Below, piece by piece: positions 7,596-21,364 of a stretch of 64,000 bases of DNA. A program made the position numbers and the translations under genes. Origin of the DNA: a virus; UHGV virus genome UHGV-0370399; one strand, given 5' to 3'. The notes beneath the pieces are model-generated. The model did no database searches. It saw nothing but the letters and a program-made list of their open reading frames with translations, and was not told the origin of the DNA. Positions within the stretch are counted from its first letter, which is position 1. Each line of letters begins with the position of its first letter.

Positions 7596-15611
<8,016 letters not shown>

Positions 15612-15613
15612 TA

Positions 15614-16801
15614 ATGGCGGTAGGTGAAATTCAAATTAGTGCCTTGCCTCAAGCAGCCTTACCAATTGACCTTAGTGATATCTTCCATCTTAAGCAGGGT
15701 ATTGAGGATAAGAGATGTACTCTTGAGCAATTACTTGCTCCACACTCAAGCCTAAGAAATAACCCTCATGGTGTTACTAAAACACAAATTGGTTTAGATA
15801 ACGTTATCAATGCTCTTCAGTTAGTTGCTGCAAATAACTTATCAGACGTTACTAATGTAGCTCAGGCAAGAGCAAATCTACAGATTATGTCTTCAGAAGA
15901 GGTTAATAATCTTGTTCAACAGCATATTCAGGACAAGAGCAACCCACATAATACAACTAAGGTACAGGTAGGATTGAGTAATGTTCAGAACTGGACAACA
16001 TCTAACCTTTATAACGAAGATGCAGATAAGTATGCTACAGCAAGAGCAGTAAATAACTTGTACAAGGCTGTTCAGGCTTCCTATCCAGTAGGTACTATCC
16101 ATCTTTCCATGAACTCTGCAAACCCTTCTACATATTTAATTTGTGGAGGAACTTGGGAGTTAGTTTCAAAAGGTAGAGCATTGGTTGGTTATGACTCTGA
16201 TACAAGACCAACAGGCTCTGTATTTGGTGCTTCAACTGTCACTTTGTCAGTTAATAACATGCCACAACACTCACACTCTGTGTCTCTTAGTGGTGGTGGT
16301 CACACCCATAATGCAACGGTGTCAATTTCAGCTTTTGATTATGGAACTAAGACTACCAACTCTTTTGACTATGGAACAAAGACCACTAACACGACTGGTA
16401 ACCACAACCATGTGGGCAGTGGGTCAACAAATGCGGCTGGTGCTCACAACCATAGATTGACCTATGAAGCAGGTGGTGGTTTATCGGAAAGACCTGCAAT
16501 GGTTTGGTCTACAAGGAATGACCAATCATGGTACTCAGCAGATGCTGTCTGTGAAGTCGCTGGTTCACACACTCACTCTTTCAGTGTTACCACTAACACG
16601 ACTGGTAACCACAGCCACACGGTTGGTATTGGTGCTCACAGCCACACGGTTGGTATTGGTTCACATACACACAATGGTACTGTAACAGTTTCTTCTTCTG
16701 AGCATACGCATAGCGGGAACACTAACAGTATTGGTGGTGGACAAGCTTTTAACATTGAGCAGCCATCCTTCGTACTGTATGTATGGCAGAGAACAGCTTA
16801 A
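15614..16801 (+). CDS. tail fibre protein with His-x-His repeat tip
   Basis: C-terminal 200 aa carry eight H-x-H motifs (SHTHSFS, GNHNHVG, GAHSHTV ...) and end VLYVWQRTA, paralogous to the C-terminus of the next gene. Confidence 0.7.
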   Translation: MAVGEIQISALPQAALPIDLSDIFHLKQGIEDKRCTLEQLLAPHSSLRNNPHGVTKTQIGLDNVINALQLVAANNLSDVTNVAQARANLQIMSSEEVNNLVQQHIQDKSNPHNTTKVQVGLSNVQNWTTSNLYNEDADKYATARAVNNLYKAVQASYPVGTIHLSMNSANPSTYLICGGTWELVSKGRALVGYDSDTRPTGSVFGASTVTLSVNNMPQHSHSVSLSGGGHTHNATVSISAFDYGTKTTNSFDYGTKTTNTTGNHNHVGSGSTNAAGAHNHRLTYEAGGGLSERPAMVWSTRNDQSWYSADAVCEVAGSHTHSFSVTTNTTGNHSHTVGIGAHSHTVGIGSHTHNGTVTVSSSEHTHSGNTNSIGGGQAFNIEQPSFVLYVWQRTA

Positions 16802-16811
16802 TTTCTTTACA

Positions 16812-16831
16812 GGGGCTTGATAGCCCCTTTT
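16812..16831 (+). terminator. intrinsic terminator between the two fibre genes
   Basis: GGGGC ttgata GCCCC followed by TTTT; preceded by TTTACA as in the B-type cassette modules. Confidence 0.6.
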
Positions 16832-16847
16832 AAGAGGAAAATTTATA

Positions 16848-19235
16848 ATGGCAGATTACAAGTTGAGTGAATTAAACTCAATCAATACAATCCGTTCAGA
16901 TGACCTTCTTCATGTCAGAGTTAAAAAGAGACCTGAAATGCTGGGTGATGAAGACCGTCGAATGACCTATCAAGACTTCTTAGCATCTTTTAAACTTGAA
17001 AGGTTTGTTCAGATTGCTGGTAGCACTATGACGGGTGACTTAGGAATTGTTAAGTTACTTTATGGTGGTAAGGTAGTATTTAACCCAACAGGCTCTTCTG
17101 AGATTACTATTGGGGATGTTTTAAAGACTTTTAAAATCAACGCAAACGGCCTTAGATTAACTATTGCAGATGCTTCAAGGTCGGCAACTGTTTATCATAC
17201 TCTGAATAAGCCAAGCCCTAATGAGCTTGGGATGAGAACTAATGAAGAGAATGATGCAAGATATGCAAGGTTGGCTGTAAATAACACCTTTAGAGGCACT
17301 CAAGCTATTCTCTCTGACAATGAAGCTCTTATTGCTAAGAATATTACACAAGGGATGCCACTCTATATTCGTGGTCAAGATGCAGATGGTACTAACAGGT
17401 GGTATCTAGGTAATGATAACAAGGGTACAGACAATCTTGTTTTAAAAAACGTTAAATCTGGTGCATATGTAGCTATTTTAGCTAACCTAATCTCCGTGAA
17501 CAAATCAATCCAAATCACTGGGCAAGTTCAACCTTCTGATTGGACTAACTTAGATGCTAGGTATTTTACTCAGACAGCAGCTAATCAGAGGTTTGCACAG
17601 TTAGCTGGTAATAATACCTTTAGAGGCGTGAATACATTTAATCAAATCCTATCAATTAAGACGAATAGTGCAGCCTTAAGGTTAAAAAACACTGTAGCTA
17701 ATGGTGCACTGTACATTAAAGCCGAAGCTAATGATGGCTCTGGTAAGTGGTATGTAGGTAATGGTGATAATACACCTGCTGTATTAATCCACAACTATAC
17801 GTATGGTTCTAATCTTAGACTCGACAATGGTTATGTTGAGGTTAATAAGCAACTTAAAGTCGTTGGTCAAGTTCAACCTTCTGATTGGACTAACATTGAC
17901 TCTAGATATATTCCGGCAGGAACTTTGAGTAATCTTGCCAAGCTGAGTGATGCAAACACTTTCAGGTCTACACAGGTTATCAATCTGAATGGCTCATTGT
18001 TACAGCTAAAGAACACTACACAAGACAGAGAGCTTTACTTTGCTGGCCATAATGCTGATGGTGTTAGAAGGTGGTACATCGGTAATGGGGAACCATCCAA
18101 CCCAACAAGATTTACTATCCGCAACGACAGAACTGCAACTACGCTTTATATGCAAGACGATTTCTTGTTGGATAAAACTGTCAGAATTACTGGTCAAGTT
18201 CAACCTTCAGATTTCTCTAACTTAGATGCTAGATATTTCTTAAAAACAAAACTGTTAAACCAATCTTTAATGACAAGGACAGCTAATAGACTGGATGACC
18301 CATCATCATTCAACAAAGATTGTTCAGGGTTTGTAAGAAACAACGCTATTGAGCAGGGTCTGAAAGATTTAGCCATCCATGTAGCACATTCTGCTGGTAT
18401 TGCTCATGCCAGAGGTATTGCTTTTACATATGGGTCTAAAGGTCTTGATGTCTTCACATACGCTTATGGGTCAGATGGAGCATATGTTGGAGAGGCACAG
18501 TTGTATTCAACGGCATTTAAACCAACCCCTTCAGGTATTGGTGCATATACTAAAGCTGAAACTGACCAGAAGATTGCACAGGCAGTAAGTGACTCTACAG
18601 ACCTTAATAAAATCTATCCAGTAGGTATTGTGACATGGTTTAACAGCAATGTTGACCCTAATACAGCACTTCCTGGTCTAACTTGGACGTACCTGAACAA
18701 TGGTGTTGGTAGAACTATCAGAATTGCAGCAGCAAACGGTTCAGATGTTGCTACAACTGGTGGTTCAGATTCTGTAACGTTATCTGTTGGCAACTTACCA
18801 TCACACACCCATAGTTTCTCTGCTACCACTTCATCTTTTGATTATGGTACGAAGAACACTAATAGCACTGGTGGTCATACTCACTCTGTAAGTGGCACAA
18901 CAAGTGCTGCTGGTAAACACGCTCACCACTTAGGTCTGCTATTGGTTAATGGTGGTGATGCTCAGTACGGTTATACAACTGTTAGCAATAACAAGACGAG
19001 AACTCTTGACTGGCTTGACAGAACTGATAACAAGTTCCCTAACACTAACACAACTGGTAACCATACACACACATGGTCTGGTACTACAAGTAACACTGGT
19101 GCTCACACCCACTCTGTAGGTATTGGTGCTCACACCCATACAGTTAGGGGTAACACTGGTGGTACAGGTTCTGGTTCAGCATTTAGTGTCACTAACCAGT
19201 TCTACAAGTTGATGGCTTGGGTGAGAACTGCTTAA
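16848..19235 (+). CDS. long tail fibre protein with triplicated internal repeat and His-x-His tip
   Basis: 795 aa; three repeats of about 110 aa each ending [16 protein letters not shown]; C-terminal H-x-H motifs; ends KLMAWVRTA. Confidence 0.75.
17521..18238 (+). repeat. three direct repeats inside the long fibre gene (period about 330-345 nt)
   Basis: ggtcaagttcaaccttctgattggactaac recurs at 17521, 17865 and 18192. Confidence 0.8.
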
Positions 19236-19314: not shown

Positions 19315-19512
19315 ATGCCTACAATCCTAGCAATTCTTCTAAAAAATCTAGGTAGCTTCTTCTGGAAACTCATTTTATCCCTTCTAAGTGAATACATGAT
19401 TGAGAAAGTGTTCTTTAGGCTTGCAAGATACCTTGCGAGTAAAACAGACACACCTATTGATGATGAGTTCGTAGATAACTTAGAAAAAGCTTTTAAGGGG
19501 GAGAATAAATGA
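19315..19512 (+). CDS. small hydrophobic protein (possible holin-like membrane protein)
   Basis: 65 aa with hydrophobic N-terminal segment; SD gaggtga. Confidence 0.3.
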   Translation: MPTILAILLKNLGSFFWKLILSLLSEYMIEKVFFRLARYLASKTDTPIDDEFVDNLEKAFKGENK

Positions 19513-19880
19513 AGTGGCTAGAGGAAGCTTTTAAAAATAATATTGGTGCAATTGTAGTTGGTATTTTTAGTGTTATTGGGATGTTTACCACGATGCAAGT
19601 TTCAAGTGGTAAACAAGAAGTGTCTGTCACAACAAAGTTACAGCAGCTAGATAATTATTCCAAAAGTAACTATTCAGCTATTCGTGATTTACAGTCTGAC
19701 ATGAGACTGATTCAGCTAGGGATGGAGAACCAGAAAGTTCAGTTAGAGAATGTTAAGGGTGAAAACGCAAAACTTACCAAAACTCTTGATAAATTCTCTG
19801 ACAGTGTGAATAATCTGGCTCAATCAGTATCAGCCCTCCAAGCTATTACTGAAAAGAACACAAAGAATACTGAAAAATAA
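19509..19880 (+). CDS. membrane-anchored coiled-coil protein
   Basis: N-terminal transmembrane segment GAIVVGIFSVIGMF then helical Q/K/E-rich domain; SD aggggg. Confidence 0.35.
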   Translation: MKWLEEAFKNNIGAIVVGIFSVIGMFTTMQVSSGKQEVSVTTKLQQLDNYSKSNYSAIRDLQSDMRLIQLGMENQKVQLENVKGENAKLTKTLDKFSDSVNNLAQSVSALQAITEKNTKNTEK

Positions 19881-19917: not shown

Positions 19918-20817
19918 TTACTTGCCTACTGACAGAGGTGCTTCAATCTTTCCTGCATGTTGGTAGTTGTTAATGCCACCAATAAAATCACTTGCAGTAA
20001 GATGTTTCAGGTCACTTAAAGTATTAAGTGGTAGACCAATCTCAAAAGTTGGTGCATGGAACTCTTCATTGTTCAGTAGTTCATAAACCTGTTTCATGTG
20101 GTTCTGATAAATCTGAGTATCTCCAAAGACACCTATCAAGTACCGTGGAGTGTATCCAGTCATCTTACAAAGAACTTCCAGAATAAAACCATAAGATGCA
20201 ATATTAAACGGGAGTCCTAAAAAGGTGTCTACTGAACGCTGATACCATTGTAAGTCAACTTCACCCTCGTTAGTGATATAAATCTGAAACAGAACATGAC
20301 AAGGTGCTAAAGCCATTGAGTTTGCTGCAATATCTGCTGCATTCCAAGCATTAACAAGCATGTAACGGTCTGTGATATCACCCTTCATCTTCGTTACTAA
20401 GGTCTCTAGTTGGTCTACAACACAGCCATTATGACCTTCAAAGTTTCTCCACTGAACCCCATAGATTCTTCCACCTGCATCCTCTAACCAATCTTGTTCA
20501 GAAGAATAATTAGAGCTTAACCAGCGTTTAAAATCATCTGACCAGATAGTCCAGCGTTCTCCGTCATTTTCACCCCAAGTACGGTAACGAAGTTCACCAA
20601 GCTTATTCTCGCCATTCAGGAACCATAAAGCTTCCCCAATAACTTGCCGTGTAAACACCTGTTTAGATGTTAAGAGCGGGAAACCAGTTCGCATATCAAA
20701 ACGAAACTGAGGTGGAGCAAATGCAGATATAACATCTCCAGTTCGTGTAGTACGCAGTTCACCAACGGATAAAACATGGTTCAGGATATTTTTGTAACTT
20801 GTATCTGCTTGTGACAT
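19918..20817 (-). CDS. thyA: thymidylate synthase
   Basis: Active-site signature LAPCHVLFQIYI and FLGLPFNIASYGF match the ThyA family. Confidence 0.9.
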   Translation of the reverse strand: MSQADTSYKNILNHVLSVGELRTTRTGDVISAFAPPQFRFDMRTGFPLLTSKQVFTRQVIGEALWFLNGENKLGELRYRTWGENDGERWTIWSDDFKRWLSSNYSSEQDWLEDAGGRIYGVQWRNFEGHNGCVVDQLETLVTKMKGDITDRYMLVNAWNAADIAANSMALAPCHVLFQIYITNEGEVDLQWYQRSVDTFLGLPFNIASYGFILEVLCKMTGYTPRYLIGVFGDTQIYQNHMKQVYELLNNEEFHAPTFEIGLPLNTLSDLKHLTASDFIGGINNYQHAGKIEAPLSVGK

Positions 20818-20818
20818 A

Positions 20819-21364
20819 TCAAAAGTGTCCTTTCACTTGTGGAACATAAATTTCAAAAGTTGCTTTACCATCCTCTGATGGTTTTGACTGTACCTTTGTA
20901 AATACACGGTTATCATACAGCTTCTCAAAGAAGTTTTCAAAAGGTAAATGCACAGTGGCCTCTTCAGTAACTTTATGGAAAACTGTATGGAAAACTACAC
21001 CAGCATACGGTAAAGCATTGACAAGGACACCTGCACCACCAATTACAAAGACATCTTCATCAATAGAGCTATCAAGATAGTTCAAAAATGCTCCAAATGA
21101 CTCTTTACTGGCTTTAGCATACATTACATCATCTTTGCCAAAGTCTATACCTAAGTATGGTACAGAATTTGTTAAGATGAGGTTTGCACGTTCTGGTAGA
21201 GGTTTACTACCCAGAGTCTTAAAAGTCTCATTACCCATGACTACTAAGTTATTTTTAGTGAGTCTCTTAAACTCTTGCATGTCCTGTTTATGTCGAGGCC
21301 ACGGCATACCAGTTGGAGTACCAAACTCCCCATTTTCACCACTTGCAAAGATTAATTTAATCAT
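20819..21364 (-). CDS. folA: dihydrofolate reductase
   Basis: MIKLIFA..G.PW.., LVVMG..TF..L motifs typical of DHFR; adjacent to thymidylate synthase. Confidence 0.85.
   Translation of the reverse strand: MIKLIFASGENGEFGTPTGMPWPRHKQDMQEFKRLTKNNLVVMGNETFKTLGSKPLPERANLILTNSVPYLGIDFGKDDVMYAKASKESFGAFLNYLDSSIDEDVFVIGGAGVLVNALPYAGVVFHTVFHKVTEEATVHLPFENFFEKLYDNRVFTKVQSKPSEDGKATFEIYVPQVKGHF

What the first reader, a model, noticed from the sequence alone, without database searches (positions are those of the whole stretch)
15614..19235. Two tail-fibre genes share a His-x-His repeat tip; the longer one contains a triplicated module
Seen in sequence: both fibre proteins end with a Gly/Thr/Ser-rich domain carrying six to eight H-x-H triplets (SHTHSFS, GNH(N/T)H, GAH(S/T)HTV) and a shared terminal W-x-RTA, and they share DNA segments such as tcttttgattatgg. 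The long fibre also has three repeats of about 110 aa, each ending (I/V)TGQVQPSD(W/F)(T/S)N(L/I)D(A/S)RY (DNA repeats at 17521, 17865, 18192). Established knowledge: H-x-H arrays coordinate metal ions in the receptor-binding tip of T4 gp37. Inference: the two fibres have exchanged or duplicated a metal-binding receptor-recognition tip, and the triplicated shaft is a hotspot for length variation.
Basis: partly seen in the sequence, partly recalled or inferred. Interest (0 to 1): 0.5.

Follow-up and report, generated by a model that had tools for sequence, protein, structure and literature searches.

The report
Felixounavirus tail fibres with T4-like tips
These are the short and long tail-fibre genes of a Felix O1-like coliphage. 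Both end in the iron-binding, T4 gp37-type receptor tip already described for this genus, so the finding is real but ordinary; the one addition is that the long fibre's three shaft repeats are swapped between phages as same-sized cassettes.

Summary
ORF 15614-16801 (395 aa, 9 HxH) and ORF 16848-19235 (795 aa, 6 HxH) are the short (STF) and long (LTF) tail fibres of a Felixounavirus. Both C-termini are homologous to the solved T4 gp37 tip (2XGF; E 2.6e-26 and 4.2e-20). The order is collar, descending needle strand with HxH, variable head, ascending needle strand with HxH, and a C-terminus (W-x-RTA, like T4 VRLA) that runs back to the collar. The Bas63 cryo-EM paper (PMC12609058, 2025) already describes exactly this for the genus.

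The two tips are 34.5% identical, no closer to each other than to T4 gp37 (36-37%). Each has nearer relatives in unrelated prophage fibres, up to 51% for the LTF tip. This is not a recent exchange or duplication.

The three ~110-aa repeats (Pfam PF20744 x3) are not a length-variation hotspot. Of the 120 listed LTF homologues, 116 are 781-797 aa. None of 21 intact genus loci has an indel of 5 aa or more in the repeats. Each repeat instead exists as discrete alleles that reassort freely. One cassette sits at position 1 in some phages and position 3 in others (89.7% DNA identity over 281 nt).

The parts
15614..16801 (+). Short tail fibre (STF) gene, 395 aa; equivalent of Bas63 gp26
   Evidence: ORF. 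phrog_2097 tail fibre 1.2e-136. Annotated 'tail fiber' in CRP22, LMP25 and VpaE1. Gene order and the sizes of the upstream wedge proteins (489 and 285 aa) match Bas63.
15614..16075 (+). STF N-terminal baseplate-binding region and short shaft (aa 1-154), with two NPHxxTKxQxGLxNV motifs at aa 50 and aa 110
   Evidence: Highly conserved among 48 homologues. Motifs found. The role is inferred from Bas63.
16076..16258 (+). STF collar domain (aa ~155-215)
   Evidence: Pfam Gp10_C 1.9e-18. Aligns to the collar of T4 gp37 2XGF and to the T4 gp10 C-domain. Foldseek to gp10 2FKK: prob 0.90, rmsd 4.3 A.
16259..16453 (+). STF needle, descending strand: HxH at aa 219, 230, 264, 278, and duplicated FDYGTKTTN units
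16454..16561 (+). STF head domain (aa ~281-316), the hypervariable distal tip and presumed receptor contact
   Evidence: Identity to homologues drops to 0.33-0.34 and indels cluster here. VpaE1 DNA identity is 48-51% here against >90% in the flanks. pLDDT <50. Corresponds to the T4 head segment in the alignment.
16562..16717 (+). STF needle, ascending strand: HxH at aa 319, 333, 342, 351, 364, including 27-nt tandem GIGxHxHTV units
   Evidence: (family D4).
16718..16801 (+). STF C-terminal return segment ending LYVWQRTA, plus stop codon
   Evidence: (V/L)Y(V/I)W-x-R-x-x is conserved in nearly all STF homologues. W391 and R393 are invariant. Aligns to T4 ...YIVRLA.
16848..19235 (+). Long tail fibre (LTF) gene, 795 aa; equivalent of Bas63 gp27
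   Evidence: ORF. phrog_4277 matches end to end. Of the 120 listed homologues, 116 are 781-797 aa.
16848..17234 (+). LTF N-terminal baseplate-binding region (aa 1-129)
   Evidence: 93-100% conserved. The role is inferred from Bas63.
17235..17564 (+). Shaft repeat R1 (aa 130-239); allele class A
   Evidence: Pfam PF20744. Repeat HMM 6.7e-58. Allele classes.
17565..17909 (+). Shaft repeat R2 (aa 240-354); allele class B
   Evidence: Weak match to T7 gp17 4A0T/4A0U.
17910..18236 (+). Shaft repeat R3 (aa 355-463); allele class D
18237..18608 (+). Connector between R3 and the collar (aa 464-587); carries the +63 aa length polymorphism seen in long-class LTFs
   Evidence: Indels mapped to aa 481-549 in L019, L023, L025-L027 and L032. 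Weak Pfam gp37_C match.
18609..18797 (+). LTF collar domain (aa ~588-650)
   Evidence: Pfam Gp10_C 5e-4. Aligned with the S and T4 collars.
18798..18929 (+). LTF needle, descending strand: HxH at aa 653, 677, 691 (HAHH)
18930..19055 (+). LTF head domain (aa ~695-736)
   Evidence: 10-35 aa deletions in relatives. VpaE1 DNA identity is 35-57% here.
19056..19235 (+). LTF needle ascending strand (HxH at aa 739, 753, 762) and C-terminal return ending MAWVRTA, plus stop codon

Best explanation
The region encodes the two receptor-binding fibres of a Felixounavirus (Felix O1-like myophage of E. coli). Each is presumably a homotrimer.

Its N-terminus docks on the baseplate. Its C-terminal ~210-240 residues form a T4 gp37-type tip. 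That tip starts with a collar and continues into a six-stranded needle, two strands per chain. Each HxH of a chain meets the same HxH of the other two chains, so that six His residues coordinate one Fe(II) on the fibre axis. By this reading the short fibre would hold up to 9 sites and the long fibre 6. A small head domain sits at the far end where the chain turns back, and that head is the part that varies and presumably contacts the LPS receptor. The C-terminus (W-x-RTA) returns to the collar.

The HxH array is therefore a structural rivet that sets needle length and rigidity. It is not the recognition surface.

The two tips are old, independently evolving members of a very widespread, horizontally mobile tip module. 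They are not products of a recent exchange between the two genes.

The long fibre's shaft contains three ~110-aa PF20744 modules of fixed number. Their variable cores behave as interchangeable cassettes, bounded by conserved junctions (...GQVQPSDxxNxDxRY plus a linker).

Shown here: homology, motif alignment, the variation maps and the cassette exchange. Inferred from T4 and Bas63: trimer state, iron binding, and which domain touches the receptor.
For: Identity of the locus:
- Megablast gives 96.6% identity to Felixounavirus NRG857CP1, with 238 Felixounavirus-type records hit.
- The IMG/VR contig in L006 is 100% identical.

Tip homology:
- phmmer against PDB finds the T4 gp37 tip 2XGF at E 2.6e-26 (S aa 146-367) and 4.2e-20 (L aa 641-774).
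- T4 HxH 883, 915, 929, 966, 980, 989, 998 align to S 230, 264, 278, 319, 333, 342, 351. S 219 and S 364 are extra, collar-proximal sites.
- T4 883-989 align to L 653, 677, 691, 739, 753, 762; L has no equivalent of T4 998.
- Key His residues are invariant or >=90% conserved across 64 STF relatives and 50 LTF relatives.
- All 120 listed LTF homologues have exactly 6 HxH.

Head as the variable element.

Published structure: the cryo-EM and AF3 study of Bas63 describes STF gp26 and LTF gp27 with collar, HxH needle, head and fold-back.

Spread of the module: 836 50%-identity clusters match the L tip at E<=1e-3. The match usually lies at the C-terminus of the matched protein, and those proteins range from under 100 to 1226 aa.

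Shaft repeats:
- PF20744 x3, E 1.4e-57.
- 17 allele combinations among 119 LTFs.
- The same cassette occupies R1 in one phage and R3 in another: 89.7% identity over 281 nt, E 3e-107.
- Mosaic DNA identity blocks are bounded by the repeat junctions.
Against: - No direct evidence here for trimerisation or metal content. AF2 could only be run on monomers and gave poor models (STF pLDDT 65.5, pTM 0.30; LTF pLDDT 46.4), so His side-chain geometry could not be judged.
- Foldseek with those models did not recover 2XGF.
- No homologue of the T4 gp38 chaperone was found in the 64-kb window, so assembly may differ from T4.
- Which fibre binds which LPS structure is unknown.
Confidence: 0.9

Rival explanations
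1. One reading: the two fibre genes of this phage recently exchanged or duplicated their tip (gene conversion between neighbouring genes), so the tips are each other's closest relatives.
For: The tips are clearly homologous (E 9e-23). They share short DNA words of up to 16 nt, rare in codon shuffles, and identical motifs. Identical codons at identical residues are slightly above expectation, 50 against 38.
Against: - 34.5% aa and 54% nt identity, no closer than either tip is to T4 gp37.
- The L tip is 46-51% identical over its full length to prophage fibre tips from other genera. The STF family ranks only about 125th among L-tip relatives.
- The two tips differ in the number of needle units (9 and 6 HxH) and in their head domains.
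Confidence: 0.04
2. The triplicated shaft is a slippage or unequal-crossover hotspot that changes fibre length by gain or loss of whole ~110-aa repeats.
For: Three tandem repeats with 65-70 nt conserved junctions (74-80% identity) could in principle support unequal recombination. Ectopic exchange between positions does occur.
Against: - 116 of the 120 listed homologues are 781-797 aa.
- None of 21 intact genus LTFs has an indel of 5 aa or more within aa 130-463.
- The long class (812-849 aa) differs in aa 480-550, not in repeat number.
- The Bas63 paper reports no variable repeat number in the genus.
Confidence: 0.04
3. The resemblance of the two tips, and of both to T4 gp37, is compositional convergence of Gly/Thr/Ser/His-rich low-complexity sequence rather than homology.
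For: The tips are strongly biased in composition and internally repetitive.
Against: - The alignment also covers the non-repetitive collar (YPVG...TW...).
- It preserves the order and spacing of all motifs and of the C-terminal W/V-R-x-A end.
- E-values were obtained with composition adjustment and with HMMER bias correction.
Confidence: 0.01
4. The HxH arrays serve mainly a non-structural role, such as iron delivery or receptor mimicry ('Ferrojan horse' idea) or direct receptor contact, rather than holding the needle together.
For: The number of HxH motifs varies between relatives: STF 6-11, LTF 4, 6 or 7. The literature discusses iron in tail fibres in this light (PMC11705849, listed).
Against: In T4 the His side chains are buried on the fibre axis (as reported). 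HxH positions are the most conserved residues, while the head is the variable part. The receptor class for this genus is LPS.
Confidence: 0.05

Closest known systems
Bas63 (Escherichia phage JohannRWettstein) STF gp26 and LTF gp27, cryo-EM, Sci Adv 2025 (PMC12609058)
   Same: Same genus, gene order and protein sizes (wedge proteins of 489 and 285 aa, then STF, then LTF). Both fibres have a gp37-like collar, HxH needle and head tip. The LTF has 6 HxH plus an extra His next to the third motif. The LTF shaft is built of repeated beta-rich modules whose sequence, not number, varies in the genus.
   Different: This phage's STF has 9 HxH, against 7 reported for Bas63. The extra His is arranged HAHH (691, 693, 694) rather than HHxH (692, 693, 695). 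The paper counts five beta-helix domains, whereas only three are recognisable as sequence repeats here. The paper does not describe discrete reassorting cassettes or the R1/R3 position swap.
T4 gp37 receptor-binding tip (PDB 2XGF, Bartual et al. 2010)
   Same: Collar, six-stranded needle with axial Fe sites made by HxH, head at the fold-back, C-terminus returning to the collar. Identity is 36-37%, at E 1e-20 to 1e-26.
   Different: Here the tip sits on short one-gene fibres (395 and 795 aa) rather than on a four-protein, 1026-aa distal half-fibre. It has 9 or 6 sites instead of 7, and different head sequences. No gp38 homologue was found nearby. The receptor class is LPS rather than OmpC/LPS.
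T4 gp10 / gp12 C-terminal 'collar' domains (Pfam PF21939 Gp10_C, PF07484 Collar)
   Same: The STF collar matches Gp10_C at 1.9e-18 and T4 gp10 structures at E 2.6e-5 to 2.3e-4. Foldseek gives prob 0.90-0.96.
   Different: gp10 lacks the long HxH needle. Only the collar is shared.
Pfam PF20744 (gp37_trimer) modules; T7 gp17 C-terminal region (4A0T/4A0U); T4 gp34 rod (4UXG/5NXH)
   Same: Three PF20744 hits cover the repeats. R2 matches T7 gp17 by sequence (E 0.0024) and locally by fold (prob 1.0, rmsd 1.7 A over 61 columns, 31% identity). The Bas63 authors liken the shaft to the T4 gp34 rod.
   Different: The gp34 match here is weak (E 0.01, prob 0.3, from a low-confidence model). T4 gp37 itself does not hit PF20744 at E<=0.01.
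Collar + Phage_fiber (PF03335) tips of lambdoid and P2-like prophage side tail fibres
   Same: The same tip module is found at the C-terminus of many enterobacterial prophage fibres. S tip identity is 38-43% over long alignments and up to about 50% over the needle segment; L tip identity is 46-51% over the full tip.
   Different: Different shafts and baseplate attachment.

Membership tests
T4 gp37-type receptor-binding tip | Sequence homology to the solved tip (2XGF) spanning collar and needle | tested here: met
   phmmer E 2.6e-26 (S aa 146-367) and 4.2e-20 (L aa 641-774).
T4 gp37-type receptor-binding tip | HxH motifs on both the descending and ascending needle strands, in register with the T4 Fe ligands | tested here: met
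   All 7 T4 motifs align to HxH in S, which has 2 extra. Six of 7 align in L. The His residues are conserved in the families.
T4 gp37-type receptor-binding tip | Variable head domain inserted between the two needle strands (fold-back point) | tested here: met
   A hypervariable, indel-rich segment at S aa 271-320 and L aa ~695-736.
T4 gp37-type receptor-binding tip | Homotrimer with axial octahedral Fe(II) sites; His side chains pointing to the three-fold axis | tested here: inconclusive
   Only monomer AF2 was possible. pLDDT was 65.5 and 46.4, with needle and head poorly modelled, and Foldseek did not recover 2XGF. Metal content is not testable with these tools.
T4 gp37-type receptor-binding tip | Dedicated gp38-type assembly chaperone encoded next to the fibre gene | tested here: not met
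   phmmer of T4 gp38 against all six-frame ORFs of the window: best E 0.2. The downstream ORFs match only families of unknown function. This feature belongs to T4 assembly rather than to the fold, and a remote or unrelated chaperone is not excluded.
Felixounavirus STF/LTF pair (Bas63 gp26/gp27) | Gene order wedge 2 (489 aa), wedge 1 (285 aa), small LTF-platform protein, STF, LTF, with end-to-end homology to the genus fibres | tested here: met
   ORF sizes of 489, 285, 100, 395 and 795 aa. phrog_2097 and phrog_4277. Synteny with CRP22, LMP25 and VpaE1. Sizes as quoted in the paper.
Pfam PF20744 gp37_trimer repeat | Score above the Pfam gathering threshold | tested here: met
   192.2 bits against a cut-off of 21.7, in three stretches.
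T4 gp34 rod-like beta-helix repeat | Fold similarity to 4UXG/5NXH | tested here: inconclusive
   Foldseek E 0.01, prob 0.3, TM 0.1-0.15, from a low-confidence monomer model. Pfam Gp34_trimer was not hit.

The most novel reading that the evidence does not exclude
The three PF20744 shaft modules of the long fibre form a cassette system. Each position carries one of several discrete alleles that are under 55% identical to each other. The alleles reassort almost freely between otherwise near-identical phages. A cassette can also move between repeat positions by ectopic recombination through the conserved ~65-70-nt junctions. If these surface-exposed cores bind something, such as host glycans or the phage's own sheath in the retracted state, they would be a second, unrecognised determinant of host range or fibre deployment, besides the head domains.
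Probability: 0.3. Interest if true: 0.5.

Novelty: already known. Interest (0 to 1): 0.27.

Why it matters
The main finding matters little in itself. Two gp37-like HxH tips and a repeated shaft in Felixounavirus fibres were published with a cryo-EM structure in 2025, and the HxH iron needle has been textbook since 2010.

It has practical use for annotation and phage engineering. The receptor-contacting part is the short head segment in the middle of the tip sequence (nt 16454-16561 and 18930-19055), not the C-terminal end or the HxH array.

The incremental point worth recording concerns the genus-wide 'unexpected' variability of the LTF shaft. It is organised as same-length cassettes that reassort and even change position. 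That gives a concrete and testable handle on why closely related Felix O1-like phages differ in host range.

Tried and rejected
- AF2 monomer models of both fibres were too poor to judge His geometry. Foldseek against the PDB gave no hit at E<=1e-3. The tool cannot model trimers or metals.
- A search for further sequence copies of the shaft repeat, using an HMM built from the three units, found only the three copies and none in the STF. The 'five domains' of the Bas63 paper could not be confirmed at sequence level.
- A search for a T4 gp38-like chaperone in the window found nothing. Pfam and PHROGs on the two small downstream ORFs gave only families of unknown function.
- The primary T4 gp37 structure paper (PMC2996694) is not held. 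T4 domain facts are taken from the Bas63 paper and from PMC6563267. The exact T4 domain boundaries rest on my memory.
- Recent gene conversion between the two tips was considered and rejected.
- Repeat copy-number variation was considered and rejected.
- The IMG/VR loci held no example of the class-F cassette at position 3, so DNA for that test had to be fetched by protein look-up.
Full report
**What is there**

The window comes from a Felixounavirus, a Felix O1-like E. coli myophage. The 3.6-kb region is 96.6% identical to Felixounavirus NRG857CP1 and hits 238 related phage records. An IMG/VR contig is 100% identical (L006).

The + strand carries, in order, ORFs of 489, 285, 100, 395 and 795 aa. 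The first two are baseplate wedge proteins (Baseplate_J, DUF2612). Their sizes equal those quoted for Bas63 wedge 2 and wedge 1. The 395-aa ORF (15614-16801, 'S') therefore corresponds to the Bas63 short tail fibre gp26. The 795-aa ORF (16848-19235, 'L') corresponds to the long tail fibre gp27. Relatives annotate both simply as 'tail fiber'.

**Check of the observation**

- S has 9 HxH triplets and L has 6. Residue shuffles give 1.4 and 0.5 on average and never reach the observed numbers in 5000 trials.
- All quoted motifs and the terminal W-x-RTA are present in both proteins.
- The tips are 42-44% Gly+Thr+Ser.
- The word tcttttgattatgg is exact only in L (18834). S has two one-mismatch copies.
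- The three ~110-aa repeats are L aa 130-239, 240-354 and 355-463, at 36-40% identity to each other, each ending in the quoted motif. The DNA repeat family lies at 17497, 17842 and 18169.

**What the tips are**

phmmer against all PDB sequences finds the T4 gp37 receptor-binding tip (2XGF) as the top hit for both proteins. The E-values are 2.6e-26 (S aa 146-367) and 4.2e-20 (L aa 641-774). S also matches the T4 gp10 C-terminal domain (Pfam Gp10_C 1.9e-18).

T4 gp37 has seven HxH in its tip: 883, 915, 929 | 966, 980, 989, 998.

| T4 gp37 HxH | S equivalent | L equivalent |
|---|---|---|
| (none) | 219 (extra, collar-proximal) | (none) |
| 883 | 230 | 653 |
| 915 | 264 | 677 |
| 929 | 278 | 691 |
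| 966 | 319 | 739 |
| 980 | 333 | 753 |
| 989 | 342 | 762 |
| 998 | 351 | (none) |
| (none) | 364 (extra, collar-proximal) | (none) |

L also carries one FDYGTK unit instead of two.

The segment between the third or fourth and the next HxH aligns to the T4 head region (S ~281-316, L ~695-736). The C-termini (VWQRTA, AWVRTA) align to T4 YIVRLA.

[quoted passage not shown] In T4 the di-histidines coordinate Fe along the needle, and the head contacts the receptor. The HxH array is thus the structural core of the needle. The recognition surface is the head, which lies in the middle of the tip sequence, and the conserved C-terminus lies back at the collar.

**Where the variation lies**

Short fibre (STF):
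- Among 48 STF homologues, identity to S is 0.87-0.96 in the N-terminal 75 aa and the collar.
- It falls to 0.33-0.34 at aa 286-315, where indels cluster.
- Against phage VpaE1, DNA identity is 48-51% in 16414-16613 but >90% in the flanks. The same holds for the L head, 35-57% at 18914-19113.
- Across Ounavirinae the STF has 6-11 HxH and lengths of 354-453 aa. Within the genus loci it has 7 or 9 HxH.

Long fibre (LTF):
- It has 6 HxH in all 120 listed homologues, and 4, 6 or 7 in more distant genus members.

Needle length and head size therefore vary between relatives, while the His ligands themselves are invariant or nearly so.

**Did the two genes exchange tips?**

Over the tips the identities are S-L 34.5%, S-T4 35.8% and L-T4 37.1%.

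Over aligned codons the DNA identity is 54%. Identical codons at identical residues number 50 of 88, against 38 expected from codon usage.

The L tip is 46-51% identical over its full 206 aa to the C-termini of unrelated proteins: Mixta 'phage baseplate protein', Klebsiella prophage tail fibre, Erwinia plasmid phage tail protein. To the STF family it is only 34-39% identical. The best non-family matches of the S tip (38-43%) also exceed its matches to the LTF family (33-37%).

In a search of 1.84 billion representatives, the L tip has 836 relatives at E<=1e-3 and 230 at E<=1e-10. The match usually lies at the C-terminus of the matched protein, and those proteins range from under 100 to 1226 aa. 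The STF family appears only around rank 125.

The tips are two old members of a widely shared, mobile module. A recent intragenomic exchange or duplication is not supported.

**The triplicated shaft**

Pfam PF20744 (gp37_trimer) matches three times (E 1.4e-57). An HMM built from the three units finds no further copy.

Repeat number does not vary:
- 116 of the 120 listed homologues are 781-797 aa.
- The alignment of 119 shows no appreciable gaps in aa 130-463.
- None of 21 intact genus LTFs has an indel of 5 aa or more there.
- The long class (812-849 aa) differs in aa 480-550, and the other length changes are head deletions.
- The Bas63 authors reached the same conclusion, namely sequence variation and not repeat number.

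What does happen is replacement of same-length blocks. Against four relatives the DNA identity profile is a mosaic. Single repeats drop to 30-60% identity while the junctions and the rest of the gene stay at 85-100%, and a different repeat is affected in each relative.

Clustering all repeat units from 119 LTFs gives discrete allele classes that are less than 55% identical to each other:

| Position | Allele classes |
|---|---|
| R1 | A, F, G, J |
| R2 | B, E, H, K |
| R3 | C, D, F, I |

They occur in 17 combinations. The window's gene is A-B-D.

Class F is found at R1 in 23 proteins and at R3 in 8. At DNA level, nt 442-722 of the LTF gene of phage LF82P2 (R1) match nt 1111-1391 of a metagenomic LTF gene (R3) with 89.7% identity over 281 nt, E 3e-107. 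By contrast, repeats within any one gene share only the ~65-70-nt junction. The repeats are therefore cassette sites with occasional ectopic relocation. I did not find this described in the papers I read.

**Structure predictions**

Only monomers could be modelled.
- STF: pLDDT 65.5, pTM 0.30, head below 50. Foldseek recovered only the gp10-like collar (prob 0.90-0.96).
- LTF: pLDDT 46.4, with the three repeats at 65-86 as beta-rich units. There was a local match to T7 gp17 (prob 1.0, rmsd 1.7 A over 61 columns) and a weak one to T4 gp34 (E 0.01).

The argument rests on sequence homology to 2XGF and on the published Bas63 work.

**Verdict**

The feature is real, well above chance, and correctly recognised as a gp37-like metal-binding tip. 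It is already described for this genus. The two evolutionary inferences, recent tip exchange and a shaft length hotspot, are not supported. The only increment is the cassette behaviour of the shaft repeats. Interest is low to moderate.

Noticed in passing
window 11938-12561 (+), aa 188-190: The 207-aa protein upstream of the wedge genes carries a single HTH near its C-terminus (...[10 protein letters not shown]). The position is the same as the H188/H190 di-histidine reported for the Bas63 puncturing-apex protein, a likely third iron site in the tail tip.
   Followed up: partly
window 15761-15805 and 15941-15985 (+): The short fibre's shaft contains two copies of NPHxxTKxQxGLxNV (aa 50-64 and 110-124). 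[quoted passage not shown]
   Followed up: no
window 16331-16374 and 16603-16671 (+): There are small tandem duplications inside the STF needle: FDYGTKTTN twice, and 27-nt GIGxHxHTV units. These are the units whose gain or loss would change the HxH number (7 or 9 in genus members).
   Followed up: partly
window 19315-19880 (+): Two small conserved ORFs (65 and 123 aa) follow the LTF. The first matches phrog_402, and its counterpart in LF82P2 carries a PF26925 Phage_PM2_Gpl hit. The second is annotated 'holin' in CRP22 but matches only phrog_4038, of unknown function. No T4 gp38-like fibre chaperone was found anywhere in the window.
   Followed up: partly
L019, L023, L025, L026, L027, L032 (LTF aa ~480-550 equivalents): A second LTF length class (812-849 aa) has a different segment, about 63 aa longer, between repeat 3 and the collar. 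Some of these have only 4 HxH and large head deletions or insertions.
   Followed up: partly
L024 4755-7125 and L029 4750-7093: In two IMG/VR relatives the LTF reading frame is split into two ORFs. This may be a frameshift or an assembly error; it was not resolved.
   Followed up: no
window ~20000 and ~30000: GC skew changes sign at about 20 kb and again at about 30 kb. At the first boundary it coincides with the switch from + strand structural genes to - strand genes (thymidylate synthase 19918-20817, dihydrofolate reductase-like 20819-21364).
   Followed up: no
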